Made by a program: the position numbers and the translations under genes. From an uncultured Thermodesulfobacteriota bacterium (GTDB taxonomy: Bacteria; Desulfobacterota; S145-22), in assembly GCA_964577975.1 (NCBI GenBank), contig CAZOBB010000026.1, forward strand, positions 3,120 to 67,119: a stretch of DNA of 64,000 bases. Reading direction: 5' to 3'. This document shows positions 12,213-63,964 of this stretch, in pieces (positions within the stretch are counted from its first letter, which is position 1; every line of letters begins with the position of its first letter). The notes beneath the pieces are model-generated. The model saw nothing but the letters and a program-made list of their open reading frames with translations, was not told the DNA's origin and did not search any database.

Positions 12213-12219
12213 AATTCAT
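12195..12219. promoter_or_regulatory. candidate TetR operator: ATTCAT-ttt-ATGAAT-cata-ATTCAT overlapping the tetR translation start
   Basis: Nested inverted repeats with 6-bp half sites were read directly from the sequence in the AT-rich divergent tetR/hflK intergenic region. Confidence 0.35.
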
Positions 12220-12383
12220 ATTATAGTTGCCCATATACAAAAAGTCAAGAGGGATGAAACGATAGATTTATATAATCGCTATGTATAATAATATCAATAT
12301 GTTGTGGCATATATCTAAGAAAGTGTCCTGCCTTTTGTCCAAAGGCCTTTCTTGACAAGCTCATCAATTAAATCTTATATAAC

Positions 12384-13448: not shown

Positions 13449-13461
13449 AAGAGGGGCAGGA

Positions 13462-27343: not shown

Positions 27344-27359
27344 GAGAAAGGGAGCTGGT

Positions 27360-28226: not shown

Positions 28227-28240
28227 TCAAGGAGTGAGGG

Positions 28241-28723: not shown

Positions 28724-28742
28724 GGACGTCGGGAGGAAGGGA

Positions 28743-43247: not shown

Positions 43248-43360
43248 ATTTTCCTCCTGCCGTGTTGCATACCTCTACGAATGGTGGTAATTATTTGGCA
43301 CAGAATGGCATTTAGGTTAGCAAAAACTAACAATTCTCAAATATATTGTCAAGAAGAGCA

Positions 43361-44146
43361 ATGAATATAGCTGTTATTCCTGCTCGATTTGGATCGACGC
43401 GTTTCCCAGGGAAGCCTCTCGCCCTCATTAAGGGACGTCCCATGTTGTGGCATGTATACCAACGAGCTGCTCGCGCCAAACTTATCGATGAAGTTTGGGT
43501 CGCCACAGATGACGAAAGGATCTATCAGGCCGTTAAATCCTGGGATGGCAATGTGGTTATGACGCGGAAGGATCACCCTTCCGGGACGGATCGAGTAGCG
43601 GAAGCCATCTCGGAGCTTTCATGCGAAATCGTGGTGAATGTTCAGGGAGACGAGCCGATGATAGATCCCGCTATCATCGATGCCGTTGTTGATCCCCTGG
43701 TCCGGAACAAGTCTCTTGGAATCGTGACACCCATCACGAAGATATGCACGAAAGATGATATTTTTGATCCGTCAGTAGTAAAGGTGGTTAGAGATGCGGA
43801 AGGGTTTGCCCTCTATTTTTCCCGGGCGCCCATCCCATATGCTAGGGATGTGAAACATTTTCAACCACACCTTGGGGATGCCGACGAGAAAAAAAACAGA
43901 TTGGAATTAGCTCGTCATCCCTACTACAGACACATAGGGCTTTACGCCTTTCATAGGGAAACCCTATCGAGATTCTGTTCTCTTCCCCCTTCCGAGTTAG
44001 AGAATACGGAGAGACTCGAGCAACTGAGGGCACTTGCCTATGGAATCCCGATCTATACGGTTGTGGTGGAGTACTTCGGAGTAGGAGTGGATTACCCCCG
44101 AGATCTCGCTGTGGTGGAACGACTTTTGTCGGACAATGGAGAGTAG
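43361..44146 (+). CDS. kdsB: 3-deoxy-manno-octulosonate cytidylyltransferase (CMP-Kdo synthetase)
   Basis: It has the KdsB N-terminus (MNIAVIPARFGSTRFPGKPL) and motifs throughout. The start is at the internal ATG. Confidence 0.85.
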   Translation: MNIAVIPARFGSTRFPGKPLALIKGRPMLWHVYQRAARAKLIDEVWVATDDERIYQAVKSWDGNVVMTRKDHPSGTDRVAEAISELSCEIVVNVQGDEPMIDPAIIDAVVDPLVRNKSLGIVTPITKICTKDDIFDPSVVKVVRDAEGFALYFSRAPIPYARDVKHFQPHLGDADEKKNRLELARHPYYRHIGLYAFHRETLSRFCSLPPSELENTERLEQLRALAYGIPIYTVVVEYFGVGVDYPRDLAVVERLLSDNGE

Positions 44147-51068: not shown

Positions 51069-51425
51069 ATGTTACGAGCGTATCTTCCTGTTTTGATTTT
51101 GGTCATGGTAGTGGTGGGGTTCGCTGTTTTTGCGGTGGTTGCCTCGCACCTGCTGGGTCAGCACAAACCCACTCGAGTCAAAATGGCTCCATACGAATGT
51201 GGAATCGCATCTCCGGGGTATGGGAAGACGCGTATCCCCCTCCGCTACTATACGGTAGCGATGCTCTTTCTTCTCTTCGACTTGGAAGTCGTCTTTCTCT
51301 ACCCGTGGGCTGTCACATTCAAGAAGCTAGGCGTTTTTGGTCTGGTTGAAATGCTGATTTTTATCGGCATTCTCCTTGTCGGGTATATCTATGTGTGGAA
51401 AAAAGGAGCTTTGGAATGGGATTAG
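51069..51425 (+). CDS. nuoA: NADH-quinone oxidoreductase subunit A
   Basis: It has 3 TM helices and the NuoA motif (YECGI...[15 protein letters not shown]). Confidence 0.9.
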
Positions 51426-51928
51426 AAACTGTTTTCGGAAAAAGCCCTATTACGGCAGGCCTTGACAAGATCGTCAACTGGGCCAGAAAAAATTCGATCT
51501 GGCCCGTTACATTTGGGTTGGCGTGCTGCGCGTTGGAGATGATGGTCGCCTCTTCAGCCTCCTACGACATTGCACGTTTTGGGGCGGAGGTTTTTCGCCC
51601 TTCACCCAGACAAGCGGATTTGATGATAGTGGCAGGGACCGTTACGAAGAAGATGGCACCCATTTTGAGGCGGATCTATGATCAGATGCCGGAACCGAAA
51701 TGGGTCATTGCCTATGGCACGTGCGCCTGTTCGGGGGGGATGTTTCAGAGTTACAACGTCGTCCAGGGAGTGGATACCATCGTGCCGGTGGATGTTTATA
51801 TCCCGGGGTGCCCTCCGCGGCCTGAGGCGTTATTGGCCGGAATCATCAAACTTCAAAAGAAAATCGAAAAAGAATCATTGCTCGACAGGAAAGACGAAAA
51901 GAGCGCGCTTATTTCCGCAGAGGGGTAA
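51415..51928 (+). CDS. nuoB: NADH-quinone oxidoreductase subunit B (N2 cluster)
   Basis: It has the [14 protein letters not shown] and GCPP motifs. The start ATG at 51415 overlaps the nuoA end. Confidence 0.9.
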
Positions 51929-51931
51929 ATC

Positions 51932-52414
51932 ATGGACTATCATGAAATGGTTGACCTGATAAAAGAGCGGTTTCCCGAAGCGATCCTTGGTTATAAGATC
52001 TTTCGGGGCGAGTTGACGATAGAGGTCGATTATAGAGAGATTGTTCCCGTTTGTACCTTCTTGAAAGAGGAGGAACCCTTCAGGATGGAGGTGCTGACGG
52101 ATTTGGCGGGTCTCGATTACGGCGTGGAGGCCTCCCCCCGATTCGGTATAGCCTACCTTCTCACCTCTGTGGAACATATTTTTCGCATGAGGGTGAAGAT
52201 TTCGTTTGAAGAAGGGACAGAGATCCCCTCTGTTTCGGGGATATGGAAAAGCGCGGAATGGCCCGAGAGGGAGGCTTGGGAGATGTTTGGGATTCAATTT
52301 GTCAATCATCCCGATTTGCGCAAGCTTCTCTTGCCGGACGATATGAAGGGATACCCTCTTCGGAAAGATTTTCCCACCAAAGGGTATCATTTCGAAGAAC
52401 CTTTTAGGGTATAA
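51932..52414 (+). CDS. nuoC: NADH-quinone oxidoreductase subunit C (30 kDa)
   Basis: It belongs to the NuoC family (EREAWEMFGIQFVNHPDLRKLL) and is not fused to nuoD. Confidence 0.85.
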   Translation: MDYHEMVDLIKERFPEAILGYKIFRGELTIEVDYREIVPVCTFLKEEEPFRMEVLTDLAGLDYGVEASPRFGIAYLLTSVEHIFRMRVKISFEEGTEIPSVSGIWKSAEWPEREAWEMFGIQFVNHPDLRKLLLPDDMKGYPLRKDFPTKGYHFEEPFRV

Positions 52415-52450
52415 GACAGAATGCCCAAATCACGTTGATTGAGGAAAGTG

Positions 52451-53623
52451 ATGGCTGAGACAAGGTACATGACGGTTAATATGGGGCCCCAGCATCCCGC
52501 AACCCATGGGGTTTTGCGTCTTCTTCTGGAATTGGATGGTGAGTATATCGTTAAGACAACCCCTATCATCGGTCATTTGCATCGGGGTGTGGAAAAACTA
52601 GCGGAAGAGCGCACATATCATCAGTTCATCCCCTTCACGGATCGCTTGGACTACACGGCGGGGATGAACAACAACCTTGCCTATGTCATGGCGGTGGAGA
52701 AACTCCTTGGAATCGAGGTGCCCAAGCGTGCCCAGTACATTCGGGTGGCTTTGGCCGAGTTGCAGAGGATCGCTGCCCATCTCATCTGGCTGGGAACCCA
52801 CGCCCTCGACATCGGCGCGATGACGGTATTGTTCTACACGTTCAGGGAACGTGAAACGGTGATCAATATCCTCGAGCACGTGTCCGGGGCTCGTTTGACA
52901 CCAAGTTACATGAGGGTAGGGGGATTGGCCGCGGACGTTCCCGACAACTTCGAGACCCTCGTGATGGATTTCGTTGAAAAATTTCCGGAGTGTATCGATG
53001 GCTATGAAACTCTCTTGACAAAAAACCCTATTTGGCTCCAGCGGACAAAAGGAATTGGGATTTTGTCGAAGGAAGACGCCTTGAACTATGGCGTGACGGG
53101 TCCGGTATTGCGTGGATCGGGCGTCAAATGGGATATACGAAAACAGTTTCCCTATAGCAGTTATGAGGATTTTGATTTCGAGGTCCCCGTGGGGACGGTG
53201 GGTGATGTATATGATCGGTACTTGGTGCGGCTGGAGGAGATGCGCCAGTCTACGCGGATCATCAAGCAGGTCATCACCAATATGCCGTCGGGTGAGATCA
53301 TGGCGGATGATCCAAAGGTAAGCCTCCCCCCGAAAGATAAAGTTTATAACGACATTGATGCGTTGATCCGCCATTTCAAGATCGAGTCTTCCGGTTTCGA
53401 GGTGCCGGAGGGAGAGGTCTTCTTCAGTGCAGAGAATCCCAAGGGGGAATTGGGGTTTTACCTCGTGAGCGACGGCTCCAACATGCCTGCGCGCATAAAG
53501 ATACGGAATCCTTCTTATTACAATCTCGCCGCGCTTCCCAAGATGATCGAGGGGAGCCTCATTGCGGACGTAGTGACAGTCATTGGGAGCATAGATATCG
53601 TGCTGGGTGAAATAGATAAATAA
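52451..53623 (+). CDS. nuoD: NADH-quinone oxidoreductase subunit D (49 kDa)
   Basis: It has the NuoD/NiFe-hydrogenase large-subunit-like pattern (NMGPQHPATHGVLRL...) with an ATG start at 52451. Confidence 0.9.
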   Translation: MAETRYMTVNMGPQHPATHGVLRLLLELDGEYIVKTTPIIGHLHRGVEKLAEERTYHQFIPFTDRLDYTAGMNNNLAYVMAVEKLLGIEVPKRAQYIRVALAELQRIAAHLIWLGTHALDIGAMTVLFYTFRERETVINILEHVSGARLTPSYMRVGGLAADVPDNFETLVMDFVEKFPECIDGYETLLTKNPIWLQRTKGIGILSKEDALNYGVTGPVLRGSGVKWDIRKQFPYSSYEDFDFEVPVGTVGDVYDRYLVRLEEMRQSTRIIKQVITNMPSGEIMADDPKVSLPPKDKVYNDIDALIRHFKIESSGFEVPEGEVFFSAENPKGELGFYLVSDGSNMPARIKIRNPSYYNLAALPKMIEGSLIADVVTVIGSIDIVLGEIDK

Positions 53624-53651: not shown

Positions 53652-55613
53652 ATGGGTGGAGTCCTATTCAGCTGCTGGAACGGAAAGGTTGTTGACAATA
53701 GGGATAAAAAACCGGGAGAGTTTGAGCCGCCGGTAGAGATCGCGCTTCCAGCAGACTTTTTTCAGGGGAAGGACCTCAAAGCCTTCATGGGCTGGGGGGG
53801 ATTTGTCATCAAAGACCCGGAGGTCTCGGTCGTCGCCCTCTCTGTGACGTTTCTCGAAAAGGTGCAAGAAGAATCGTGCGGACAATGTATTCCGTGTCGC
53901 ATTGGAACGAGGGTCATGCTGGACATGATGCGAGATATCGCCTCGGGAAAGGGGAAAAAGGGAGACTTGGATACCCTTTTGTCCTTGGGAGAGACGATAC
54001 GCCGTTCTTCGAAATGCACCATCGGTCAAACCTCTCCCACACCCGTGATGGAGGCGATCAAATACTACCGTGATGAGTTCGAGAAGGCGCTGGAAGGAAA
54101 GACAAAGGGCGGAGGGGGAAAAGGTGTTCATTACCTTTCAAAAGTCACGGCCCCGTGCATGAACGCGTGTCCTTCCCATCTCAACGTCCCCCGTTATGTG
54201 GAATTGATCAAAGATGGGAGGTTTTTGGATTCGCTGGAGATCATCCGGGAGAATACGTGCCTGCCCGGCGTGTTGGGACGCGTTTGCGTGAGGCCATGTG
54301 AATCCAATTGTCGGCGCGCCAATGTGGACGAATCCATATCCATAAAATATTTGAAACGTTTCGCGGCGGATTTCGAGCTAGAAAAACACCACAAACCGAA
54401 ACTTCCCCTCCCCACGCAGAAAAGAGACAAGAAAGTGGGAATTATCGGGGCGGGTCCCGCAGGTGTGACATGCGCCTACTACCTGGCGGAGAAGGGGTAT
54501 CAGGTAACGATATTCGAACGTTTTGGCGAACCGGGTGGGATGTCTGCGATGGGAATCCCCGACTATCGTCTGCCGAGGCCGATTCTCCGAAGAGAGGTGG
54601 AGATCATTCAGTCCATGGGGGTTGAGATCCGCTATAACACCATGGTGGGTCGCGATATCACCATGAAGGAGATACGAGACGAATTCGACGCTGTCTTTAT
54701 CGCCGTCGGCGCGCAAGGAAGCACGAGCATGCGGGTTGAGGGTGAAGATGCAGGATACAAAGGCTTCATTCCGGGGGTAAAATATCTTCTGGATATCAAC
54801 CAAGGCCGCGATCCTTACCCTGAAGGGAAAAAGGTCGTAGTCGTGGGGGGTGGAAACGTTGCCATCGACTGCGTTCGATGTTCTTTCCGGATAGGCAAAG
54901 AGGACGTCAATCTCGTTTACCGTCGAACCAAGAAAGAAATGCCGGCGGACGATGTGGAAATAAGAGATGCGGAAGAGGAAGAGGTAAAATTCCACTTTCT
55001 CTGTAATCCGACACGCATCATCGCGGAGAACGGAAAAGTCGTCGGAGTCGAGCTGATTCGGATGGAGCTTGGAGAACCGGACGAAAGTGGTCGGAGACGG
55101 CCCATTCCGGTGGAAGGATCCGAATTTGTCATTGATACGGATATCATCGTTCCTGCGATCGGACAGGCGATTGATCTTTCCTTCATTGATGCGGATACCC
55201 AGTTGGAGGTCACGAGAAAGAACACCATTGTCGTTGATCCCGAAACGATGATGACGAGCGTGGAAGGTATCTTCTCTGCCGGTGACTGCGTCACGGGACC
55301 TGGGGCGTTGGTCGAAGCGGCCGGCGGAGGAAGGACGGCAGCGTTCAGGATTCACCAGTATCTGAGTGGGGAGGAGGTCAAACGGACCGACGAAGAGCTG
55401 ATGGAGGACTTCTTTTCCGCAATGGGTGTGTATGATCCGAAGGAAGACATAGGCATCATAGATGGGAGGGAGAGAAAACACCTGAAGATGTTGCCGCCTG
55501 AAACGCGAAAGTATACCTTTGACGAAGTCGAGTCGGGTTTTCCGGTCAACGAGGCAATCGAAGAGGCAGATCGGTGCCTCCGGTGCTATAGAATCGGGCT
55601 GGTGGCGTTATAG
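53652..55613 (+). CDS. fusion protein: NuoF C-terminal [4Fe-4S] N3 domain (no FMN/NADH-binding domain) + GltD/SudA-type Fe-S / FAD / NAD(P)H oxidoreductase (SfrB-like)
   Basis: Residues ~70-150 align with the NuoF C-terminus (ESCGQCIPCRIG...KCTIGQ...AIKYYRDEFE). Then comes a GltD-type dicluster region (CMNACPSHLNVPRYV...CVRPCESNCRR). Two Rossmann dinucleotide sites follow (GIIGAGPAGVTCAYYLAEKG and VVVVGGGNVAIDC), and the C-terminus has GDCVTGPGALVEAAGGGR. There is no GGxGG FMN motif. Confidence 0.75.
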   Translation: MGGVLFSCWNGKVVDNRDKKPGEFEPPVEIALPADFFQGKDLKAFMGWGGFVIKDPEVSVVALSVTFLEKVQEESCGQCIPCRIGTRVMLDMMRDIASGKGKKGDLDTLLSLGETIRRSSKCTIGQTSPTPVMEAIKYYRDEFEKALEGKTKGGGGKGVHYLSKVTAPCMNACPSHLNVPRYVELIKDGRFLDSLEIIRENTCLPGVLGRVCVRPCESNCRRANVDESISIKYLKRFAADFELEKHHKPKLPLPTQKRDKKVGIIGAGPAGVTCAYYLAEKGYQVTIFERFGEPGGMSAMGIPDYRLPRPILRREVEIIQSMGVEIRYNTMVGRDITMKEIRDEFDAVFIAVGAQGSTSMRVEGEDAGYKGFIPGVKYLLDINQGRDPYPEGKKVVVVGGGNVAIDCVRCSFRIGKEDVNLVYRRTKKEMPADDVEIRDAEEEEVKFHFLCNPTRIIAENGKVVGVELIRMELGEPDESGRRRPIPVEGSEFVIDTDIIVPAIGQAIDLSFIDADTQLEVTRKNTIVVDPETMMTSVEGIFSAGDCVTGPGALVEAAGGGRTAAFRIHQYLSGEEVKRTDEELMEDFFSAMGVYDPKEDIGIIDGRERKHLKMLPPETRKYTFDEVESGFPVNEAIEEADRCLRCYRIGLVAL

Positions 55614-55661: not shown

Positions 55662-58133
55662 ATGACGGTGCATATAACAATAAACGGAAAAGAGATCGAA
55701 GCGGAAGAGGGAAAGACGATCCTCGAGGTGGCGAGGGAAAACGATATCTACATCCCAACGCTTTGTTATCATTCACACCTTCATCCCATTGGCTCCTGCC
55801 GCTTGTGTGTAGTCGACATTGAGGGTTATTCCATGCCTATGGCGGCCTGTACCACCCCTGTTATGGATGGAATCCGGGTTCATACAAATACGGGCAGGGT
55901 GAAGAAGATGCGGCGGCAAGCGATGGAGTTGATTCTTGTCAACCATCCCCTCGACTGTCCCGTATGCGATAAAGGAGGAGAGTGCCGTCTTCAAGATCTT
56001 GCCTATGAGTTCGGAATAGATGAGCAGCCCTTCTATGCCAAAAAACCGGAAAGGGAGATTGTCCCTTTTTCAACGCCTCTCATCCGCCAGTGGGTGGATC
56101 GCTGTGTGGTCTGTCTCCGTTGCGTACACGTATGCCACGAACTCGTTGGAAACGCCGCCATCGATGTTAAAGAGACGGGCTACCGATCGGTAATCTATCC
56201 CGTAGCTCCGGAAAGGTGCGCATCCTGTGGTGAATGCCTTTCGGTCTGTCCTGTGGGTGCTTTGACAGAGGCGGTCAATCCCTTGCGTGGGCGCGTGTGG
56301 CAAATAGACCGGGAACAGACGACGTGTGGCCAGTGTGGTATAGGGTGCCAGATGGAAATAAGCGTCTATGACAACAAGCCGGTCAATGTGAAGACGGATG
56401 GGGTTCTTGATGCGGCGCCGAATCATGGGAGCCTGTGCGCTCGGGGAAGGTTTTTCTACGACTATGTAAACAGCGACGAACGCGTTGTGCGTCCGAAGAT
56501 CAGAAAGGGAGAGGAGTGGGTCAACACCACGTGGGAGGAGGCTTATGAAGAGGCGATCAATCGGCTTCGGGAGATAACGCGAGAGTATGGGACTGATGCA
56601 GTGGGGTTCGTGGTGTCGTCCCGGCTGGTGAATGAAGACCTGGTAAAAATATATGAGTTTGCCCTAAAAGGAATGGAGATAGTAAACATAGACACCTCTT
56701 CTAGGTTCGATCTCAGGGTTCATGAGGATATTCTAAAGGCATGGACGTCCGCGGGAATATCGCGTTCCCTGAAAGACCTGAAGGAGGCGGATCTCGTGGT
56801 GGTCGCGGGTGGAGACATCGATCTTACCGCTCAGATCGTGGCAAACAACGTTCGTTATGCGCAGCGTCTGAGAGACGCAAAGGTCATTACGATTAATCCC
56901 TACAAAACACGGCTTGATGAGATTGCGGATGCTCCCATGTATTGCAACGCCGGAACGGAGATTCCTGTGTTTTATGGCCTAATCAAAGAGGCTTTTTCTG
57001 AGCGGGAGACGTTTACATCAGATGAAGGGTGGAACTCTTTTGTAAAGGCATTGGACGATTATTCCGGCGAAGAGGTTTGTGATGCGGCTGGTGTCGATAA
57101 AAAGACGTTTGAAGAGGCTGCTAAATTGTTGAAAGAAAAAGAGACGGTAGCCTTTGTGGTAGGGACAAGCCTAGGGCAAATAGTGAATGGATCGCAAAAC
57201 ATAAAAGCACTCGCCAACGTGGCGCTTGCCTGTAAAAAGGCGGGTAAAAAAGTCGTGTGGATCCCGGTGAGCGCCTATGCCAACGCGATGGGGTCATTGT
57301 GGATCGATCAGAGGGAGAAGAAGGAGCGGGGCCTTACCTACGGCGAGATGATACAGGCGGCGCAGAATGAAAAGCTGAAAGGACTCGTGGTGGTGGAAGA
57401 CGATCCATTGGCCTTCCTGCCCGATACGGAATACGTAAGAGAGGCCCTGAAGAAACTCGACTTTCTCATGGTGGTTGACCTGTTTGAAACAGCCACATCG
57501 GCCTATGCTCATCTCTTCCTTCCTTCCTGCAGTTTCATGGAAAAGGAGGGTACCTTCATCAACGTGGAGGGAAGAAAAGGTGCCGTTCGAAAGATGATGA
57601 CCCCCCTTAATGAAACGAAAACGGCGGGTAATATCTTTATGGAGCTGGCCCTGAAAATGAAGCTCGACATCACCGTGAGCGAGGAGGGCGTGAAGGAAAA
57701 GGTTGATTCGTTGGGTGAAGGTGCCGCGGAAAGCTCTTTGGGATTCTTTGATGTGGCCTATCAAGCGGTCAGGGCGGAAGAAAATGGACATCTCTTCCTC
57801 TTGTGCCCGGATCACCTCTATAACCATCATTACGGCATCGAGCGGGTTTACGCGACGGCGATAGATAAGCTAGACAAGACGCCCGAATACCTCATGAATC
57901 CTAAGGACGCCGCGAGATTTGGGATCGAAGAGGGGATGGAAGCGGTGTTGTCAACGGAGAAGGGAAAGATAACGGTACGGCCGACGCTGTCCGAAGACGT
58001 AAAGGAAGGCCACATGGTTGTAAAATCCCACTACCGGCCAACGGGAATTAAGAGATTGTTTCCTTTCGAGCTGGATGAAGAAGTGAAAACCCCTATGAGT
58101 GGATTCGTCCGCGTAAAATTGCAGAAGCCATAA
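55662..58133 (+). CDS. nuoG: NuoG-like 75-kDa subunit (2Fe-2S N1b, His-ligated N5, N4 and N7-type cluster motifs + degenerate molybdopterin-oxidoreductase domain); SfrA/FdhA-like alternative possible
   Basis: It has CYHSHLHPIGSCRLC (2Fe-2S), HPLDCPVCDKGGECRLQ (the HxxxCxxCx5C N5 motif), CVVCLRCVHVC and CASCGECLSVCP (4Fe-4S), and CGQCGIGC (N7/Fdh-type), and is 823 aa. Confidence 0.8.
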   Translation: MTVHITINGKEIEAEEGKTILEVARENDIYIPTLCYHSHLHPIGSCRLCVVDIEGYSMPMAACTTPVMDGIRVHTNTGRVKKMRRQAMELILVNHPLDCPVCDKGGECRLQDLAYEFGIDEQPFYAKKPEREIVPFSTPLIRQWVDRCVVCLRCVHVCHELVGNAAIDVKETGYRSVIYPVAPERCASCGECLSVCPVGALTEAVNPLRGRVWQIDREQTTCGQCGIGCQMEISVYDNKPVNVKTDGVLDAAPNHGSLCARGRFFYDYVNSDERVVRPKIRKGEEWVNTTWEEAYEEAINRLREITREYGTDAVGFVVSSRLVNEDLVKIYEFALKGMEIVNIDTSSRFDLRVHEDILKAWTSAGISRSLKDLKEADLVVVAGGDIDLTAQIVANNVRYAQRLRDAKVITINPYKTRLDEIADAPMYCNAGTEIPVFYGLIKEAFSERETFTSDEGWNSFVKALDDYSGEEVCDAAGVDKKTFEEAAKLLKEKETVAFVVGTSLGQIVNGSQNIKALANVALACKKAGKKVVWIPVSAYANAMGSLWIDQREKKERGLTYGEMIQAAQNEKLKGLVVVEDDPLAFLPDTEYVREALKKLDFLMVVDLFETATSAYAHLFLPSCSFMEKEGTFINVEGRKGAVRKMMTPLNETKTAGNIFMELALKMKLDITVSEEGVKEKVDSLGEGAAESSLGFFDVAYQAVRAEENGHLFLLCPDHLYNHHYGIERVYATAIDKLDKTPEYLMNPKDAARFGIEEGMEAVLSTEKGKITVRPTLSEDVKEGHMVVKSHYRPTGIKRLFPFELDEEVKTPMSGFVRVKLQKP

Positions 58134-58148: not shown

Positions 58149-59123
58149 ATGGCATTGTTAATTGAATCCATCGTGAAAGTCATCGTTGTTTTTGGGATCT
58201 TCATGGGATGTGTCGCGTACATGACCCTTTTGGAGAGAAAGGTGCTGGGGCGTGTTCAGGTGCGTTACGGCCCCAACCGTGTCGGGCCGTTTGGGATTTG
58301 GCAACCACTCGCGGATGGCGTGAAGGCCTTTTTCAAGGAGGACTTGATCCCTGCCAACGCCGACAAGCCCCTTTTCATCATCGCGCCGATGATAACCGTG
58401 GCGTCTGCCTTGTGTTTGATTGCGGTGATTCCTTTTGGCGACAAGATCACCCTGTTTGGAAGAACGATCTATTTGAGAATCACCGATTTGGACGTGGGTA
58501 TCCTTTATCTCTTTGCCTTCGCCTCCCTTGGGGAATATGGGGTCGTCCTGGGCGGCTGGGCGTCGGGAAACAAATACGGCGTAATCGGGGCGTTACGGGC
58601 CGCCGCGCAGATGATCAGCTACGAATTGGCGCTGAGCCTGTCCGTGATCGGGGTCATCATGATCACCGGTTCCCTCAGCCTTTCCGCTATCGTGGAACAC
58701 CAAGCGCACATGTGGAATATCGTCTACCAGCCTTTCGCGTTCGTATTCTACATGGTGTGTGCCTTGGCCGAGATCAATCGGACCCCGTTTGACATGCCGG
58801 AGGCGGAAGCGGAACTGGCATGTGGGTATAATATTGAGTACAGTAGCATGAAATTCGCCCTCTTCTTCATGGGGGAATACGCACATCTCGTGGTCGTATG
58901 CGCCGTGGCGACGACCCTGTTTCTTGGAGGATGGCAGGGGCCGTTCCTTCCAGGAGTCGTATGGTTCTTGCTTAAGACATTTGTCTTGGTTTTCTTCTGT
59001 ATATGGGAGAGGGGAACCTTTCCGAGGTTGCGTTACGATCAGATCATGCACTTCGGATGGAAGATTTTGCTCCCGTTGACGTTGGCGAATGTGGTGGTAA
59101 CCGCCATCGTGATGGCCTTATAG
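58149..59123 (+). CDS. nuoH: NADH-quinone oxidoreductase subunit H
   Basis: It has 8 TM helices and the NuoH motifs (MTLLERKVLGRVQVRYGPNRVGPFG... EYA). Confidence 0.9.
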   Translation: MALLIESIVKVIVVFGIFMGCVAYMTLLERKVLGRVQVRYGPNRVGPFGIWQPLADGVKAFFKEDLIPANADKPLFIIAPMITVASALCLIAVIPFGDKITLFGRTIYLRITDLDVGILYLFAFASLGEYGVVLGGWASGNKYGVIGALRAAAQMISYELALSLSVIGVIMITGSLSLSAIVEHQAHMWNIVYQPFAFVFYMVCALAEINRTPFDMPEAEAELACGYNIEYSSMKFALFFMGEYAHLVVVCAVATTLFLGGWQGPFLPGVVWFLLKTFVLVFFCIWERGTFPRLRYDQIMHFGWKILLPLTLANVVVTAIVMAL

Positions 59124-59136
59124 GAGGGACGATACG

Positions 59137-59550
59137 ATGATTATTCCGCTGATAAAGGGTTTGAAATATACATTGGGGAGATTCTTTTCCAAGCCGATTA
59201 CCATCCAGTACCCCGAGGAACGACGGGAGGTTGCGCCAAGGTGGCGAGGAATCCATTATTTCAACGTGGATGAAAATGGGACGTTCAAGTGCGTGGCGTG
59301 TGGGTTGTGCGCGGCGGTTTGTCCCTCACAGTGTATCAAGATAACGGCGGGGGAAGACGAAGAAGGCGTGCGTTATCCCATGCATTATGAAATCAATGCG
59401 ATCCGGTGCATCTATTGCGGTTTCTGCGTAGAGGCCTGCCCGGTAGATGCGATCAGGATGGGGTCGAAATATGATTTCACCGATTACAAACGCGAAGACT
59501 TCATATTAACCATTGATCGCTTGGTCTCTCAGGATTACTTGGAGAAATAG
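59137..59550 (+). CDS. nuoI: NADH-quinone oxidoreductase subunit I (2x[4Fe-4S])
   Basis: It has two CxxCxxCxxxCP motifs (CVACGLCAAVCP; CIYCGFCVEACP). Confidence 0.9.
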   Translation: MIIPLIKGLKYTLGRFFSKPITIQYPEERREVAPRWRGIHYFNVDENGTFKCVACGLCAAVCPSQCIKITAGEDEEGVRYPMHYEINAIRCIYCGFCVEACPVDAIRMGSKYDFTDYKREDFILTIDRLVSQDYLEK

Positions 59551-59561
59551 GAGTAGAAGGC

Positions 59562-60089
59562 ATGGCTGTTCTAATAGCGAAATGGGTGATTTTTATCATC
59601 GTAAGCCTCTTGGCGATTGCGTCCTCCGTCTTGATGATTACGCGAAGGAACACATTGCACAGCGCGCTGTTCATGATACTGGCGTTCGTGGCCTCGGCTA
59701 TCCTTTATCTTCTGTTGGGATGCCAGTTTCTCGCCATGTTGCAGATTATCGTCTACGCGGGGGCCGTCATGATGCTGATCATCTTCGTCATCATGATGCT
59801 GGATTTGAAAAAGGAAGAACAGACGAAGATGAAGGTTACGAAGACGAAAGTAACGGGTGTTATTCTGAGTGTCCTATTCATGTTGATGCTCATTTTGGTG
59901 ATGGGATTGAACGCCATAAAGGGGAAAATGGGAAATCTGAGCTCGATCGGGGACGCGAAAACCATCGGGTCTCTCTTGTTTACGAGGTTTCTGCTCCCCT
60001 TCGAGGTGGCGTCGATCCTTCTATTGGCTGCCATGGTGGGTGCCGTCATGTTGAGTAAAAAGAAAGCCTTTGGAGGAGAGGATCAATGA
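59562..60089 (+). CDS. nuoJ: NADH-quinone oxidoreductase subunit J
   Basis: It has 5 TM helices matching the NuoJ family, in conserved operon position. Confidence 0.85.
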
Positions 60090-60388
60090 TACCGGTGCAA
60101 GCCTATTTTGTCGTGAGTGCGATCCTGTTTGTAATTGGTGTTATCGGGGCTATCACACGCCGGAATGCCATTGTGGTGTTCATGTCCATCGAGATGATGC
60201 TGAATGCCGTGAACCTTATCATGATAGCCGCGTCGAGCTATCTCCATTCCATTGATGGTGTGATGTTCGTTTTCTTCGTGATGACGGTCGCCGCGGCGGA
60301 GGCGGCGGTCGGGCTCGCCATCTTCCTGATGATGTATCGCAAGAAAGACACCATAAAACTAGACGAGTTTAACCTGCTCAAAGGATAA
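60086..60388 (+). CDS. nuoK: NADH-quinone oxidoreductase subunit K
   Basis: It is 100 aa with 3 TM helices and conserved Glu residues, and overlaps nuoJ by 4 nt. Confidence 0.9.
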
Positions 60389-60404
60389 AGAAGGAGAACG
60401 ATCC

Positions 60405-62354
60405 ATGACGTCGTATATCTGGCTGATTCCTTTCTTCCCGATGGTCGGTTTTTTGATCAACGGCCTGCTAGGTGTCAAATTCAAGCGGTCGTGGATTCAC
60501 GTGATCGCGGCATCCGCGATTGGACTTTCGTTTCTCACGACCGTTATCCTCTTCTTTGAACTTCTGAAGGTAGAACCACACGCGAGGCATTTCGAAAATG
60601 TCATCTTCGACTGGATCGTGGCAGGAAAGTTTCACACCCAGATCGCGTTCATGCTGGATCCTCTCTCTATCGTCATGGCCCTGGTGGTAACGGGGGTTAG
60701 CTTCATGATCCACATCTATTCCGGTGGATACATGCATGACGATCCGGGGTTCCGGCGGTTTTTCGTGTATCTCAACCTTTTCGTTTTTTCCATGTTGATA
60801 CTCATCCTATCGAACAGCTTCCTCCTCATGTTCGTGGGATGGGAAGGTGTGGGACTTTGTTCATATCTGCTGATCGGGTTCTGGTTTGAGAAGGATTCAG
60901 CCGCGAACGCAGGAAAGAAGGCGTTCGTGGTCAACCGGATCGGTGACTTTGGTTTCATCCTGGGAATCTTCCTCATCGTGGCGACGCTCAGCAAACATGG
61001 AATCTGGTCGCTCAATTTTGATGTCGTGTTCAAACACGCCGAGCTCTTCAGCCCGGCAACGGTGACGGCGATTACCCTGCTGTTATTTGTCGGTGCGACG
61101 GGGAAATCGGCACAGATTCCGTTGTATGTATGGCTGCCTGACGCGATGGAAGGTCCCACCCCCGTAAGCTCTCTGATCCATGCCGCGACGATGGTGACCG
61201 CGGGAGTCTACATGATCGCGCGGTGCAACGTGCTCTACAGCATGGCGCCGATAAGCCTGGAGGTGGTGGCGGTTATCGGCGTGCTCACGGCCTTCTTTTC
61301 GGCCACGATCGCCTTGGTACAGAACGACTTCAAGCGGATACTGGCCTATTCCACGGTAAGCCAGTTGGGATATATGTTCGTCGGTGTCGGAGTAGGGGCA
61401 TTCAGTGCGGGTATCTTCCACCTCATGACCCACGCCTTTTTCAAAGGACTTCTCTTCCTGGCGTCCGGAAGTGTCATGCACGCCATGGCGGGCGAGTTGA
61501 ACATACAGAAGATGGGTGGTCTCAAGAAGTTTATGCCCGTTACCTTTTGGGTTTTCATGATGGCAACGTTGGCCATCGCGGGGATTCCCGGTTTTTCCGG
61601 GTTCTTCAGCAAGGATGAGATCCTGTGGCAGGCCTTCAGCCGCGGACACACGTTTGTGTGGTTGCTTGGAACAATAGCGGCGGGCTTGACGGCGTTTTAT
61701 ATGTTCCGCCTCGCCTTCGTCGCCTTTTTCGGAGAACCGCGCATCGACGAGGAGGTTAAACATCACCTTCACGAATCGCCCAAGGTTATGACGTATCCCA
61801 TGATCGTGTTGGCCGTTGCCTCCGTCGTGGGAGGATACGTGGGGATTCCCCCTGTTTTGGGCGGGTCGAATCGGTTCGAGAAATTCCTGGAGCCCATCAT
61901 TGGAAGTGGCATGCACGAGGCAGTCAAGGAAGGGGCACACGCGGCCATGCATCATTCCGCGTCGCTCGAATTCCTCATGATGGGCATATCGGTGGCCGTT
62001 GCGATCATTGGAATTGCCGTGGCCTATATGTTTTATATCAAGAATCCAAACATCCCCGTGCGACTCGCAGAAGGAATGAAAGGCTTGTACACGCTTCTCT
62101 ACAACAAATACTTCGTGGACGAATTCTACAACAGCGTATTCGTTCAGGGGACGAAGGATTTCGCCACGTTTTTGTGGCAGAAAGTGGATGTAGGGGTCGT
62201 GGACGCCATCGTCAATGGAGTTGCCAAGGTTGTGGAACTCTGCGGCAGTGGCATTCGCAGATTGCAGACGGGGTATGTCCAGACCTATGCCTTTTCGGTT
62301 CTGGTGGGTGGAATAGCGGTATTTATTTACTTTTTCTGGGAGTCACTGTTTTAG
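60405..62354 (+). CDS. nuoL: NADH-quinone oxidoreductase subunit L
   Basis: It is a 649-aa antiporter-like subunit with a long C-terminal extension. Confidence 0.9.
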   Translation: MTSYIWLIPFFPMVGFLINGLLGVKFKRSWIHVIAASAIGLSFLTTVILFFELLKVEPHARHFENVIFDWIVAGKFHTQIAFMLDPLSIVMALVVTGVSFMIHIYSGGYMHDDPGFRRFFVYLNLFVFSMLILILSNSFLLMFVGWEGVGLCSYLLIGFWFEKDSAANAGKKAFVVNRIGDFGFILGIFLIVATLSKHGIWSLNFDVVFKHAELFSPATVTAITLLLFVGATGKSAQIPLYVWLPDAMEGPTPVSSLIHAATMVTAGVYMIARCNVLYSMAPISLEVVAVIGVLTAFFSATIALVQNDFKRILAYSTVSQLGYMFVGVGVGAFSAGIFHLMTHAFFKGLLFLASGSVMHAMAGELNIQKMGGLKKFMPVTFWVFMMATLAIAGIPGFSGFFSKDEILWQAFSRGHTFVWLLGTIAAGLTAFYMFRLAFVAFFGEPRIDEEVKHHLHESPKVMTYPMIVLAVASVVGGYVGIPPVLGGSNRFEKFLEPIIGSGMHEAVKEGAHAAMHHSASLEFLMMGISVAVAIIGIAVAYMFYIKNPNIPVRLAEGMKGLYTLLYNKYFVDEFYNSVFVQGTKDFATFLWQKVDVGVVDAIVNGVAKVVELCGSGIRRLQTGYVQTYAFSVLVGGIAVFIYFFWESLF

Positions 62355-62380
62355 TAGGAAGAGAACGAAGGAGAATCTAA

Positions 62381-63964
62381 ATGGGTGGATTGGCACATAT
62401 TCCGATCTTGAGCATTGTCATCTTTTTCCCGATGGTGGGGGTATTGTTCCTTCTCCTCATCGACAGGGAAAACGAATCGGTTATCAAAGGAACAGCGCTC
62501 GTTTTCTCGATCATCGAGTTTTTCCTTTCGCTTCCCTTGATCGTTCGTTTCAATCCGGGCACAGCGGACTTCCAGTTCGTGGAAAGGGTGCCATGGATCA
62601 AGGCGCTGGGGGTGCAGTATTTTCTGGGAATCGATGGAATCAGCTTGCTGATCGTGATGCTGACCACCTTTTTGACTGTTTTGTGTATCTTGAGTTCGTG
62701 GGACGCCATCAAAAAGAACGTGAAAGAGTACATGATCTCCATGCTCTTCTTGGAGACGGGTATGTTGGGGGCCCTTTTGTCCCTCGACTTGGTTCTTTTC
62801 TATATATTCTGGGAATTGATGTTGATCCCCATGTATCTCCTGATTGGGGTATGGGGCGGCCCGAGGCGCATCTATGCGGCGGTCAAATTCTTCCTGTACA
62901 CGATGGTGGGAAGTGTCTTGATGATGGTGGCCATATTGGCGCTTTACTTCCTCTACCACAAGGCGATGGGGGTATATACCTTTGATATTACGCAATTGTA
63001 TAAACTCAACCTCCCCGTTGGTGTTCAATTATGGATGTTCGCGGCGTTCGCGCTGGCGTTCGCCATCAAGGTCCCCATGTTTCCCTTCCATACGTGGCTG
63101 CCGGACGCCCACACGGAGGCCCCCACGGCGGGAAGCGTCATCCTGGCGGGCGTCCTGTTAAAGATGGGAACCTACGGCTTCATCCGTTTCTGTATTCCTC
63201 TCTTTCCAACGGCGGCGATCAAGTTCACCCCGTTGATCATGCTGTTGGCCGTCATAGGCATCATCTACGGTGCTCTGGTCGCCATGATGCAAAAAGATGT
63301 GAAAAAGCTCGTCGCCTATTCCAGCGTGAGCCACCTGGGATTCGTCATGTTGGGAATGTTCGCGTTGAACATGCAAAGCGTGGAGGGAAGCATCTATCAG
63401 ATGCTGAACCATGGAATCAGCACGGGGGCATTATTTTTGATCGTGGGTATGATCTATGAGCGGCGACACACGCGTTTGATCAAAGACTTCGGGGGATTGG
63501 CCAAACAGTTGCCCATCTTTGCCACCTTCTTCATGATCGCCACGCTCTCGTCCATTGGGCTGCCGGGCACGAACGGCTTCGTGGGTGAGTTCCTCATCTT
63601 ACTGGGGACCTTCAAAGCCAGTCGGCCCTTCGCGGTCTTCGCCGCCACCGGCGTCATCTTGGGTGCCGCCTACATGCTCTGGATGTTCCAGCGCGTGATG
63701 TTTGGAAAACTGGACAAGGAGGAGAACAAGGTTCTCAAGGATTTGAATTGGCGCGAGGTGGTCACCCTTGTCCCCATCGTCATCATGGTGTTTTGGATGG
63801 GAATCTATCCAAAATTCTTCATAGGCAAAATGGAAAAGAGCGTTTCCAGCTTTTTGACGAACGTGCATAAAAAGGTCGAGGCGCGCAGCGTATTGGACAA
63901 CAAAAAGGCTGTGGCGGAGAATCTTTGGAAATCCGGCAGAATCTCAACGGAAAAGGTCAATTAG
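62381..63964 (+). CDS. nuoM: NADH-quinone oxidoreductase subunit M
   Basis: It is a 527-aa antiporter-like subunit ([28 protein letters not shown]). nuoN begins at 63996 at the window edge. Confidence 0.9.

What the first reader, a model, noticed from the sequence alone, without database searches (positions are those of the whole stretch)
55662..58133. NuoG-like subunit retains N1b, His-ligated N5, N4 and an N7/Fdh-type CGQCGIGC motif; could be an SfrA/formate-dehydrogenase-like partner of the GltD fusion
The 823-aa protein has the full NuoG N-terminal cluster set plus the fourth-cluster motif at the start of the molybdopterin-oxidoreductase-like domain. In Geobacter the SfrB partner SfrA is exactly such an FdhA/NuoG-like protein. 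Whether this protein is a structural 75-kDa subunit or a catalytically active Mo/W enzyme (e.g. formate- or NADPH-linked) determines what the hybrid complex actually oxidises.
Basis: partly seen in the sequence, partly recalled or inferred. Interest (0 to 1): 0.6.

Follow-up and report, generated by a model that had tools for sequence, protein, structure and literature searches.

The report
Dead formate-dehydrogenase-like NuoG in NADPH-type complex I
The protein is the iron-sulfur "wire" subunit of an unusual respiratory complex I whose normal NADH-binding head is replaced by an NADPH-type flavoprotein; it descends from a formate dehydrogenase, but its metal active site is dead, so it carries electrons and does not oxidise formate.

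Summary
The ORF (55662-58133, 823 aa) is real and intact. That gives five clusters, as in NAD-dependent formate dehydrogenase FdsA.

The catalytic question resolves to "not catalytic". FdsA Cys386/His387/Arg587 align to Asp350/Leu351/Ser537, the transfer Lys is Arg261, and four bis-MGD motifs are altered. The protein falls below both NCBIfam cut-offs (NuoG 387<470; Fdh-alpha 297<666). The molybdopterin-like domain evolves far faster than the Fe-S part, as in ordinary NuoG and unlike selenocysteine FdhA relatives.

It sits between nuoD and nuoH, after a fusion of the NuoF N3-cluster domain with GltD. No NuoE or FMN domain occurs in the window. The same layout recurs in divergent Thermodesulfobacteriota, including ORM2a, whose published annotation calls nuoG "missing".

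Relatives form a series:
- selenocysteine FdhA in or beside the nuo operon (L008, L010);
- FdhA-like proteins that keep the MGD motifs but lack catalytic residues;
- this degenerate clade.

Best reading: an SfrBA-like or NADP-FDH-like module was recruited as the electron-input module of complex I, and this subunit is only the wire. It is a new variant of a known kind.

The parts
55662..58133 (+). G' gene: 823-aa FdhA-derived NuoG-position subunit
   Evidence: ORF and translation. Pfam domains. AF2 model pLDDT 88.4.
55662..55901 (+). [2Fe-2S] N1b/A5 domain (aa 1-80; ligands C35, C46, C49, C63)
   Evidence: Fer2_4 E=4e-22. Ligands invariant in 82 sequences.
55944..55985 (+). His-ligated [4Fe-4S] N5/A4 motif, H95-x3-C99-x2-C102-x5-C108
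   Evidence: PF10588 E=1e-20. Aligns to FdsA H117/C121/C124/C130 (PMC7171172).
56103..56249 (+). 2x[4Fe-4S] ferredoxin domain. N4/A3 = C148, C151, C154 + C196. Extra A2-type cluster = C186, C189, C192 + C158.
   Evidence: Fer4_7 dicluster and Fer4_Nqo3 hits. Cys list. Alignment with FdsA and HydA.
56325..56438 (+). N7/A1 [4Fe-4S] motif C222-x2-C225-x3-C229 ... C259, followed by R261 where FDHs have the electron-transfer Lys
   Evidence: Molybdop_Fe4S4 E=5e-12. Motif tables. Position 261 is R in 14/14 clade members.
56478..57731 (+). Molybdopterin-oxidoreductase-like domains II/III (aa 273-690), degenerate
   Evidence: PF00384 E=2e-40. Only 23% invariant columns against 62-65% in the Fe-S domains. 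MGD motifs altered.
56682..56729 (+). Former active-site segment VNIDTSSRFDLRVHED. D350-L351 stand in place of the Cys/Sec-His pair.
   Evidence: HMMER alignment to FdsA C386/H387. D and L present in 14/14 clade members.
57252..57299 (+). Segment aligned to the FDH 'PLRGQNNVQG' motif. The catalytic Arg is replaced by S537.
   Evidence: T in 10 and S in 4 of the 14 clade members.
57759..58130 (+). Domain IV (Molydop_binding-like cap), aa 700-823
   Evidence: PF01568 E=3e-11, residues 713-806.
53652..55613 (+). Upstream partner: 653-aa fusion of the NuoF C-terminal N3 [4Fe-4S] domain with a GltD/NfnB-like 2x[4Fe-4S]-FAD-NAD(P)H module (GxGxxA + YRR)
   Evidence: Canonical NuoF proteins match only window 53682-54095.
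51069..53623 (+). nuoA, nuoB, nuoC, nuoD
58149..63964 (+). nuoH, nuoI, nuoJ, nuoK, nuoL, nuoM. The operon runs towards the window end.

Best explanation
The protein is the NuoG-position subunit (G') of a non-canonical complex I. It acts as an iron-sulfur wire, not as a molybdo- or tungsto-enzyme.

Shown:
- It has five Fe-S ligand sets arranged as in FdsA.
- Its formate-dehydrogenase catalytic residues are gone and its bis-MGD motifs are degenerate.
- It is encoded between nuoD and nuoH, directly after an N3-domain + GltD flavoprotein.
- No NuoE or NuoF FMN domain is present in the window.

Inferred mechanism:
- NADPH is oxidised at the GltD FAD. NADPH is suggested by the GxGxxA and YRR motifs.
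- Electrons pass through the two GltD [4Fe-4S] clusters to the fused N3 cluster, which docks on G' as NuoF does on NuoG.
- They then run N1b -> N4 -> N5 -> NuoI (N6a/b) -> NuoB (N2) -> menaquinone, coupled to proton pumping by NuoHJKLMN. The reaction may also run in reverse to make NADPH.
- The extra A2-type cluster and N7 form a side branch ending at the dead Mo site. This branch is most probably an evolutionary remnant with a structural or buffering role.

Evolutionary reading (inferred): an NADP-FDH/SfrBA-like alpha-beta module was recruited as the input module of complex I, and its Mo site decayed once NADPH rather than formate was the donor.
For: Catalytic residues:
- FdsA C386/H387/R587 align to D350/L351/S537.
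- The same holds in all 14 clade sequences, and the Lys295 equivalent is Arg.

MGD motifs: GANP, DPR, GENP and TFTNxERR are all altered.

Family scores:
- NuoG TIGR01973: 387 bits, cut-off 470.
- Fdh-alpha TIGR01591: 297 bits, cut-off 666.
- Nuo-embedded relative P0027: 693 bits on Fdh-alpha.

Conservation pattern:
- This clade: Fe-S part 82-85% pairwise identity, Mo-like domains 51-57%.
- Canonical NuoG shows the same pattern: 48 vs 31% and 81 vs 58%.
- Sec-FdhA relatives show the opposite: 50 vs 60%.

Structure: the fold is complete and confident (pLDDT 88.4). It is closest to NAD-FDH alpha subunits (TMq 0.86-0.89) and next to NuoG (0.79).

Operon:
- The order is nuoABCD, fusion, G', nuoHIJKLM.
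- Canonical NuoF sequences match only the N3 part of the fusion, and NuoE matches nothing in the window.
- The same order occurs in relatives at 36-38% and 30% identity: L004, L006 and L012 (ORM2a).
- It also occurs in clade members L091 and L093.

Precedents:
- StnC pairs a catalytically inactive FdhF-like domain with GltD (PMC10482914).
- N7 = A1, and A2 links A1 to the chain in FdsA (PMC7171172).
Against: - No cofactor or activity data exist.
- Asp350-Leu351 are invariant in the clade, and Asp can ligate Mo in other enzyme families.
- The Mo-like domain is still well folded and keeps part of the EKxGTF motif, so a nucleotide or pterin ligand cannot be excluded. M. smegmatis NuoG binds a GTP-like moiety (PMC10068793).
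- Physical attachment to the Nuo membrane arm is inferred from gene order only.
- NADPH specificity is inferred from motifs.
- In the sister sub-clade (L002, L092) the GltD part is absent, so the donor there is unknown.
Confidence: 0.8

Rival explanations
1. G' is still a Mo/W-bisPGD (or other pterin/nucleotide) enzyme. Asp350 acts as the metal ligand and the enzyme oxidises or reduces a substrate other than formate, so the complex has a second catalytic site.
For: - D350-L351 and R348 are invariant in the clade.
- The closest sister group (about 855 aa; P0018, P0025, P0068) keeps Cys at this position.
- The Mo-like domain is confidently folded.
- The A2 cluster would connect N7 and the site to the main chain.
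- The organism makes at least one molybdoenzyme: a xanthine-DH family operon at window 27279-31136.
Against: - The catalytic His and Arg are lost, and the transfer Lys is replaced by Arg.
- Four MGD-contact motifs are changed.
- The Fdh-alpha HMM score drops to 297 bits in two pieces.
- The Mo-like domain has only 20-23% invariant columns, against 62-65% in the Fe-S domains.
- Asp at or next to this position also appears in ordinary degenerate NuoGs: L016 RWDP, L020 SLDH.
- There is no moeA, mobA or fdhD on the contig.
Confidence: 0.07
2. The A2-N7 branch is a working second electron port. A low-potential partner such as ferredoxin or flavodoxin docks on the Mo-like domain and feeds or accepts electrons. 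G' would then be the true input module and the GltD fusion an optional add-on, possibly giving a two-donor or confurcating enzyme.
For: - All eight ferredoxin-domain Cys and all four N7 Cys are invariant in the clade.
- In FdsA the equivalent A2 couples A1 to the chain.
- Relatives exist with an N3-only protein (L002, L092) or with nothing between nuoD and G' (L020 Desulfosoma). This shows that G' can be kept without a GltD donor.
- The N7 domain is more conserved (77%) than the Mo-like domain (56%).
Against: - N7 is also conserved and needed only for stability in E. coli complex I (cited in PMC10068793).
- No partner gene is conserved next to the operon.
- Conservation of cluster ligands is expected for folding alone.
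- L008 has an active Sec-FdhA, so its lack of GltD is explained by formate being the donor.
Confidence: 0.13
3. G' and the fusion form a soluble SfrAB-like NADPH oxidoreductase. It is merely co-transcribed with an 11-subunit Nuo-like complex that takes electrons from another donor.
For: - A soluble-type pair (N3-GltD + G'-like) with no nuo genes within 6 kb exists (L019).
- SfrAB is a soluble enzyme (own knowledge of Kaufmann & Lovley 2001; summarised in PMC7483475).
- 11-subunit complexes lacking NuoEFG are common (PMC11238625 abstract).
Against: - The two genes sit inside the operon, exactly where nuoE/F/G normally lie. Gaps are 29-49 nt, and the position is kept across lineages sharing only 30-38% identity.
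- G' keeps the His-ligated N5 cluster, which in complex I hands electrons to NuoI.
- The fusion keeps the N3 domain, which docks NuoF onto NuoG.
Confidence: 0.07

Closest known systems
FdsA, alpha subunit of NAD+-dependent formate dehydrogenase (R. capsulatus 6TG9/6TGA; R. aestuarii 9KTL; M. extorquens 7VW6)
   Same: - Best sequence match (E=8e-95) and best fold match (TMq 0.86-0.89).
- Same five Fe-S sites, A1-A5, including the A2 cluster that links the N7-equivalent to the chain.
- Same four-domain molybdopterin fold.
   Different: - Cys386/His387/Arg587 are replaced by Asp/Leu/Ser, Lys295 by Arg, and the MGD motifs are altered.
- It is encoded in a nuo operon with a GltD-type partner, not a NuoE/NuoF-type partner (FdsG/FdsB).
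Canonical NuoG/Nqo3/75-kDa subunit of complex I (T. thermophilus 4HEA, E. coli 7NZ1, M. smegmatis 8E9G)
   Same: - Same operon slot.
- Same N1b, N4, N5 and N7 ligands.
- Mo-like domain without catalytic residues.
- Same conservation pattern, with a conserved Fe-S part and a fast-evolving Mo-like part.
- Best NCBIfam model is NuoG.
   Different: - It scores below the NuoG cut-off (387 < 470).
- It has the extra A2-type cluster, so N7 should not be isolated. In the Thermus, E. coli and M. smegmatis enzymes N7 lies about 20 A from N4 (PMC10068793).
- Its partner is N3+GltD, not NuoE/NuoF.
- Some bacterial NuoGs in 14-gene operons (L021, L022, L024, L027) also keep all eight ferredoxin Cys.
SfrA/SfrB, soluble NADPH-dependent oxidoreductase of Geobacter sulfurreducens, and the NADP-dependent FDH of Moorella thermoacetica (own knowledge; PMC7483475)
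   Same: An FdhA/NuoG-like Fe-S subunit is paired with a GltD-like NADPH flavoprotein encoded next to it. No FDH chemistry is expected.
   Different: - Here the pair is embedded between nuoD and nuoH, so it is predicted to be membrane-complex bound.
- Direct sequence comparison with Geobacter SfrA was not possible with the tools.
- The soluble-type pair L019 shares only about 30% identity.
StnC (S. ovata StnABC, 8OH5) and NfnA of NfnABC/Bfu (9BOV, 9N5U)
   Same: - A GltD NADPH/FAD module feeds a NuoG-like Fe-S chain that carries a catalytically inactive FdhF-like domain (PMC10482914).
- These are the best PDB matches of the fusion's GltD part.
   Different: - In Stn and Nfn, GltD is inserted into the NuoG-like polypeptide, and the partner is a bifurcating NuoEF-like HydBC module.
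- Here GltD is fused to the N3 domain, there is no FMN module, and the acceptor is a membrane arm.
HydA of the bifurcating [NiFe]-hydrogenase HydABCSL (A. mobile 7T2R)
   Same: A NuoG-like subunit with a cofactor-less molybdopterin-like domain. It aligns over residues 3-671 (E=1e-74).
   Different: HydA lacks domain IV and is part of a soluble hydrogenase.
Complex I with replaced input modules (Campylobacter/Helicobacter NuoG with a predicted A2-type cluster and non-NuoEF partners; Fpo/Fqo with FpoF; cyanobacterial NDH-1)
   Same: The same principle applies: the membrane arm and Q-module are kept while the electron-input module is swapped. An A2-equivalent is predicted in the C. jejuni, H. pylori and A. 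aeolicus enzymes (PMC7171172).
   Different: The donor modules are unrelated to GltD. The details for these systems come from own knowledge and were not tested here.

Membership tests
NuoG (complex I subunit G; NCBIfam TIGR01973) | Ligand sets for N1b, N4 and His-ligated N5 | tested here: met
   C35/46/49/63; C148/151/154/196; H95/C99/102/108. Invariant in 82 sequences.
NuoG (complex I subunit G; NCBIfam TIGR01973) | Encoded in a nuo operon immediately upstream of nuoH | tested here: met
   Order nuoABCD, fusion, G', nuoHIJKLM. The same order is found in L004, L006, L012, L091 and L093.
NuoG (complex I subunit G; NCBIfam TIGR01973) | Whole-protein score at or above the curated cut-off (470 bits) | tested here: not met
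   387 bits, covering model positions 1-603 of 606.
NuoG (complex I subunit G; NCBIfam TIGR01973) | Works with NuoE and an FMN-binding NuoF | tested here: not met
   Canonical NuoF proteins hit only the N3 part of the fusion (window 53682-54095). NuoE hits nothing in the 64-kb window. The rest of the genome was not available.
Metal-dependent formate dehydrogenase alpha subunit (FdhA/FdsA; TIGR01591) | Sec or Cys Mo/W ligand followed by His | tested here: not met
   D350-L351, in 14/14 clade members.
Metal-dependent formate dehydrogenase alpha subunit (FdhA/FdsA; TIGR01591) | Catalytic Arg (FdsA R587) | tested here: not met
   S537 in the query; T or S in all clade members.
Metal-dependent formate dehydrogenase alpha subunit (FdhA/FdsA; TIGR01591) | bis-MGD-contacting motifs (GxNP, DPR, GENP, EKxGTFTNxERR) and the Lys between the proximal cluster and the pterin | tested here: not met
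   GGDI, NPY, EDDP, EKEGTFINVEGR and R261. The motif roles come from own knowledge of FdhH and FdsA structures. Actual cofactor binding is not testable here.
Metal-dependent formate dehydrogenase alpha subunit (FdhA/FdsA; TIGR01591) | Whole-protein score at or above the curated cut-off (666 bits) | tested here: not met
   297 bits in two stretches. The nuo-embedded relative P0027 reaches 693.
Metal-dependent formate dehydrogenase alpha subunit (FdhA/FdsA; TIGR01591) | Proximal [4Fe-4S] (A1) and the FdsA-type Fe-S chain A2-A5 | tested here: met
   All ligand sets are present.
SfrA (Geobacter SfrAB NADPH oxidoreductase) | FdhA/NuoG-like Fe-S protein encoded next to a GltD-like NADPH flavoprotein | tested here: met
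   The fusion at 53652-55613 lies 49 nt upstream.
SfrA (Geobacter SfrAB NADPH oxidoreductase) | Soluble enzyme not associated with nuo genes | tested here: not met
   It is embedded between nuoD and nuoH. Actual localisation is not testable here.
SfrA (Geobacter SfrAB NADPH oxidoreductase) | Sequence orthology to G. sulfurreducens SfrA | not tested
   The SfrA sequence could not be retrieved with the tools. The soluble-type homologue L019 shares about 30% identity.
StnC / NfnA (Bfu-type GltD-NuoG fusion) | GltD domain inserted in the same polypeptide as the NuoG-like domain, with a HydBC/NuoEF-like bifurcating partner | tested here: not met
   GltD is on the neighbouring polypeptide, fused to N3. 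There is no FMN module in the window.

The most novel reading that the evidence does not exclude
In canonical complex I, N7 is isolated. Here an A2-type cluster should connect it to N4. On this reading the dead Mo domain with its A2-N7 branch is a working second electron port. A low-potential carrier such as ferredoxin or flavodoxin, or an unknown partner, would exchange electrons there while NADPH enters through GltD-N3. The result would be a two-donor, possibly confurcating or bifurcating, proton-pumping complex I. The family would form a modular series of input heads on one membrane arm: Sec-FdhA for formate, GltD for NADPH, and N3-only.
Probability: 0.12. Interest if true: 0.8.

Novelty: new variant of a known kind. 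Interest (0 to 1): 0.5.

Why it matters
The result settles what this hybrid complex does not oxidise, namely formate at this subunit. It points to NADPH, through the GltD fusion, as the likely donor of a proton-pumping complex I in hydrothermal-vent and anaerobic Thermodesulfobacteriota.

The family appears to go unrecognised. I found no description in nine full-text searches. The published ORM2a genome analysis reports its Nuo complex as lacking nuoG (PMC13101534), although an N3-GltD fusion and a G' gene sit between nuoD and nuoH in that genome (L012).

The graded series offers a natural record of how a soluble dehydrogenase module becomes a respiratory-complex subunit, and of how cluster N7 became an "evolutionary remnant". 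The series runs:
- active selenocysteine FdhA in the NuoG slot;
- FdhA-like proteins that keep the MGD motifs but lack catalytic residues;
- the fully degenerate form found here.

It also bears on metabolic reconstructions of sulfate reducers and syntrophs, where NADPH or formate linked to menaquinone with energy conservation would change the energy budgets.

Tried and rejected
- Literature. Nine full-text searches were run (SfrAB/nuo; nuoEF/GltD/nuoG; nuo + glutamate synthase + Syntroph; SfrB/NuoG; nuoEFG/SRB; nuo/gltD/Desulf; fdhA/nuoD/nuoH; Y-junction/NuoG/GltD; ORM2/nuo). None gave a description of this operon type. The Zuchan et al. 2021 'Y-junction' paper is not held.
- GTDB genome scan with the clade alignment. 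No clade member was returned (best 34%), so the organism could not be named. It did yield the informative variants L008, L010, L012, L019 and L020.
- Cluster look-up for names. It returned only 'Deltaproteobacteria bacterium' MAG labels.
- NJ tree. The clade sits on a long branch next to HydA, and its placement relative to canonical NuoG and FdhA is unresolved. I therefore do not claim a specific ancestry from the tree, only from motif sharing and identity ranking.
- A first MAFFT --auto run timed out, and MAFFT without --anysymbol failed on U. Both were repeated.
- One exact-product look-up found nothing because of a start-codon mismatch.
- Catalytic Sec by read-through was considered and rejected. 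The query has no in-frame stop, and the aligned codon encodes Asp.
- A pseudogene was considered and rejected. The ORF is intact, its orthologues are conserved and the model is confident.
- The cavity for MGD could not be measured, because model coordinates are not exposed by the tools.
Full report
**Observation**

The ORF at 55662-58133 (+) is intact. It has an ATG start with a GGAG eight nucleotides upstream, a TAA stop, and encodes 823 aa. Pfam finds these domains, in order:
- Fer2_4 (residues 2-77)
- NADH-G_4Fe-4S_3 (84-122)
- Fer4_Nqo3 / Fer4_7 dicluster (139-202)
- Molybdop_Fe4S4 (219-271)
- Molybdopterin (274-663, E=2e-40)
- Molydop_binding (713-806)

The Cys/His positions, read against the R. 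capsulatus FdsA alignment and the published FdsA cluster assignments (PMC7171172), give:
- N1b/A5: C35, C46, C49, C63
- His-ligated N5/A4: H95, C99, C102, C108
- N4/A3: C148, C151, C154 + C196
- N7/A1: C222, C225, C229 + C259

It is incomplete, though. The ferredoxin domain holds eight Cys (C158 and C186/189/192 in addition), which predicts a second [4Fe-4S] equivalent to FdsA cluster A2. All ligands are invariant in the 13-member clade. All except C158 and C259 are invariant in 82 family members, where C259 is nearly invariant.

**Is it a catalytic Mo/W enzyme?**

The best PDB sequence match is FdsA (6TG9, E=8e-95). In that alignment FdsA Cys386 (Mo ligand), His387 and Arg587 fall on Asp350, Leu351 and Ser537. 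I extended this to 120 database homologues plus three structural references.

All 14 members of the query's clade (58-100% identity) show the following:
- Asp-Leu at the ligand/His positions.
- Thr or Ser at the Arg position.
- Arg in place of the Lys that lies between the proximal cluster and the pterin in FDHs.
- Four motifs conserved in the active enzymes FdsA and B. subtilis ForC are changed, whereas several relatives keep them: GANP->GGD[ILV], DPR->N[PSA][YF], GENP->EEDP, TFTNxERR->TF[IV]NxEG.

NCBIfam places the protein below both curated thresholds: NuoG TIGR01973 at 387 bits (cut-off 470) and Fdh-alpha TIGR01591 at 297 bits in two pieces (cut-off 666).

Within the clade the Fe-S part (residues 1-215) has 62-65% invariant columns and about 85% pairwise identity. 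The Mo-like domains have 20-23% invariant columns and about 56% identity. Canonical NuoG groups show the same asymmetry. Selenocysteine-FdhA relatives show the opposite, with the Mo domain more conserved than the Fe-S part.

This is a non-catalytic, NuoG-like use of an FdhA fold.

**Structure**

An AlphaFold2 model built on 82 sequences is confident (pLDDT 88.4, pTM 0.89). Foldseek against the PDB ranks NAD-dependent FDH alpha subunits first (9KTL, 7VW6, 6TG9, ForC; TMq 0.86-0.89). NuoG of M. smegmatis and E. coli (0.79) and Nqo3 (0.69-0.70) come next. The whole four-domain molybdoenzyme fold, including the cap domain, is thus retained although the active site is not. I could not inspect the MGD cavity, because coordinates are not exposed by the tools.

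**Context in the window**

The gene lies in a nuo operon:
- nuoA 51069-51425
- nuoB 51395-51928
- nuoC 51932-52414
- nuoD 52439-53623
- a 653-aa fusion, 53652-55613
- G' 55662-58133
- nuoH 58149-59123
- nuoI 59137-59550
- nuoJ 59562-60089
- nuoK 60086-60388
- nuoL 60405-62354
- nuoM 62381-63964

The fusion combines two parts. The first is the NuoF C-terminal N3 [4Fe-4S] domain (PF10589). The second is a GltD/NfnB-type module carrying Fer4_20 (2x[4Fe-4S]), FAD and NAD(P)H sites, with a GxGxxA motif (GGGNVA) and YRR. These motifs are typical of NADPH binders (motif interpretation from PMC7483475).

The best solved relatives of the GltD part are NfnA of NfnABC, StnC and NfnB. Canonical NuoF proteins taken from three 14-gene operons match the window only at 53682-54095, the N3 domain. 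The ORFs upstream of nuoF in those operons, where nuoE lies, match nothing.

No moeA, mobA or fdhD lies on the contig. A xanthine-dehydrogenase-family molybdoenzyme operon does (27279-31136).

**Relatives**

The homologue search gives a tight clade of 14 clusters, from hydrothermal-vent and other metagenomes labelled 'Deltaproteobacteria'. Identity then drops to 36-38% in hundreds of 855-890-aa 'FdhA/YjgC-like' proteins from Thermodesulfobacteriota and Syntrophaceae.

Both second-tier proteins whose contigs I examined (P0018, P0027) lie in the same operon slot after the same fusion. So does the 30%-identical protein of the complete genome of Thermodesulfobacteriota ORM2a (L012). The published analysis of ORM2a describes its Nuo complex as 'missing nuoG' (PMC13101534), so this G' class is evidently not recognised as NuoG by routine annotation.

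None of the 106 second-tier proteins has the catalytic Arg or a (Cys/Sec)-His pair. One subgroup keeps the MGD motifs, and P0027 still scores 693 bits on Fdh-alpha. Another subgroup has Cys-Leu at the active site and shares the GGDxD and EG[RK] variants with the query's clade.

Further out there are fully active-looking versions:
- L008, a sulfate-reducer MAG with sat upstream, has the order nuoABCD, fdhA, nuoHIJKLM. Its fdhA carries an in-frame TGA followed by His, keeps Arg, Lys and all MGD motifs, and has a SECIS-like GGCAGGUCUUGCC hairpin 14 nt downstream.
- L010 has fdhA (Sec) immediately upstream of nuoA, and the N3-GltD fusion lies directly between nuoD and nuoH.

Other variants also occur:
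- a sister sub-clade (P0010, P0012) in which the fusion is replaced by a 155-158-aa N3-only protein that stops at the linker;
- L020 (Desulfosoma), with nuoD directly followed by a degenerate G';
- L019, a soluble-type N3-GltD + G' pair with no nuo genes nearby.

**Mechanism**

Shown:
- the cofactor-ligand inventory;
- the loss of catalytic residues;
- the operon position and its conservation across relatives.

Inferred:
- NADPH reduces the GltD FAD, and electrons pass through the two GltD clusters to N3.
- N3 sits on G' as it does on NuoG, and electrons follow N1b -> N4 -> N5 -> NuoI -> NuoB N2 -> menaquinone with proton pumping. The enzyme may run in reverse to produce NADPH.
- By homology with FdsA, where A2 couples A1 (the N7 equivalent) to the chain, N7 here should be electronically connected. 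In the Thermus, E. coli and M. smegmatis enzymes it lies about 20 A from N4 (PMC10068793).
- I read this branch as a remnant of the FDH ancestry, ending in a dead site. It may have a structural or buffering role.

The recruitment scenario is that an NADP-FDH/SfrBA-like pair was captured as the complex I input head and its Mo site then decayed. It rests on the graded series above and on identity ranking. A quick NJ tree did not resolve the clade's position.

**Rivals**

- A residual Asp-ligated Mo/W or other cofactor site (about 0.07). In favour: Asp350 is invariant and the sister group has Cys. Against: loss of His, Arg and Lys, the motif decay, fast evolution of the domain, and Asp at or next to the same position in ordinary degenerate NuoGs (L016, L020).
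- A working second electron port at A2/N7 (about 0.13). This is compatible with the main model. It is suggested by the variants that keep G' without GltD.
- A soluble SfrAB-like enzyme that is merely co-transcribed (about 0.07). Against: the conserved position in the E/F/G slot, the retained N5 cluster and the retained N3 docking domain.

**Comparison and novelty**

- The protein works like NuoG. By curated thresholds it is a member of neither NuoG nor FdhA.
- It resembles SfrA in pairing with a GltD-type partner but differs in being nuo-embedded.
- It resembles StnC and NfnA in combining GltD with an inactive Fdh-like domain (PMC10482914). It differs in domain wiring, and its acceptor is a membrane arm.
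- I found no description of this operon type in the held literature, but subscription journals are largely not covered.
- I rate it a new variant of a known kind. The specific question posed, catalytic or structural, has an ordinary answer. The family context is of moderate interest to bioenergetics.

**Limits**

- There are no cofactor, localisation or activity data.
- Only about 71 kb of the genome is available.
- Cluster distances and MGD-cavity occupancy were not measurable.

Noticed in passing
L008:3478-14569 (MAG Deltaproteobacteria Meg22_1012_Bin_341, JAFDGW010000008.1): The operon reads nuoABCD, then a full selenocysteine formate dehydrogenase alpha subunit, then nuoHIJKLM. The fdhA has an in-frame TGA at 7042-7044, a U-H active site, keeps Arg, Lys and the MGD motifs, and has a SECIS-like hairpin. 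No NuoE/F, N3 or GltD lies within 6 kb. This looks like an active FdhA in the NuoG slot, that is, a possible formate:quinone proton-pumping complex I. ATP sulfurylase lies upstream.
   Followed up: partly
L010:6007-14569 (CALLAL010000034.1): fdhA (Sec, TGA at 7042) lies immediately upstream of nuoA. The N3+GltD fusion (11572-13524) sits directly between nuoD and nuoH, with no G gene between them. The same parts occur in a different gene order.
   Followed up: partly
L002:9445-9921 and L092:3457-3924 (clade members P0010, P0012): In a sister sub-clade the 653-aa fusion is replaced by a 155-158-aa protein consisting only of the N3 cluster domain. It ends at the Gly/Lys-rich linker. G' and the rest of the operon are unchanged, and the electron donor there is unknown.
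   Followed up: partly
L012:2827-9549 (Thermodesulfobacteriota ORM2a, CP113000.1): The benzene-degrading ORM2a genome has the order nuoD, N3-GltD fusion, G', nuoH. The published genome analysis states that its Nuo complex lacks nuoG (PMC13101534), so this subunit class appears to be missed by standard annotation.
   Followed up: partly
window:26048-31136: An AMP-binding ligase is followed by a three-gene xanthine-dehydrogenase-family molybdoenzyme (FAD_binding_5/CO_deh_flav_C, Fer2/Fer2_2, Ald_Xan_dh_C/MoCoBD). The organism therefore makes a molybdenum cofactor, although not necessarily bis-MGD.
   Followed up: no
window:46759-50875 and L002:2569-6691: A flavodoxin_2/FMN_red gene, a Y1_Tnp-like (REP-associated tyrosine transposase-like) gene, inositol-1-phosphate synthase and a glycosyltransferase-like gene lie upstream of nuoA. 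They are syntenic in a 60%-identical relative, so the transposase-like gene is not recently mobile. A CTP_transf_3/NTP_transf_3 gene at 43346-44146 lies nearby. Together these may be an inositol-derived compatible-solute pathway.
   Followed up: no
L019:4008-8472 (CBDUSG010000005.1): An N3+GltD fusion (653 aa) is directly followed by a G'-like protein with a degenerate active site. There are no nuoD or nuoH genes within the flanks. This is a soluble, SfrBA-like version of the same pair.
   Followed up: partly
L021, L022, L024, L027 (canonical 14-gene-type nuo loci): Several NuoG proteins in operons with ordinary NuoE/F also keep all eight Cys of the 2x[4Fe-4S] ferredoxin domain. The A2-type cluster is therefore not restricted to the FdhA-derived G' class.
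   Followed up: no
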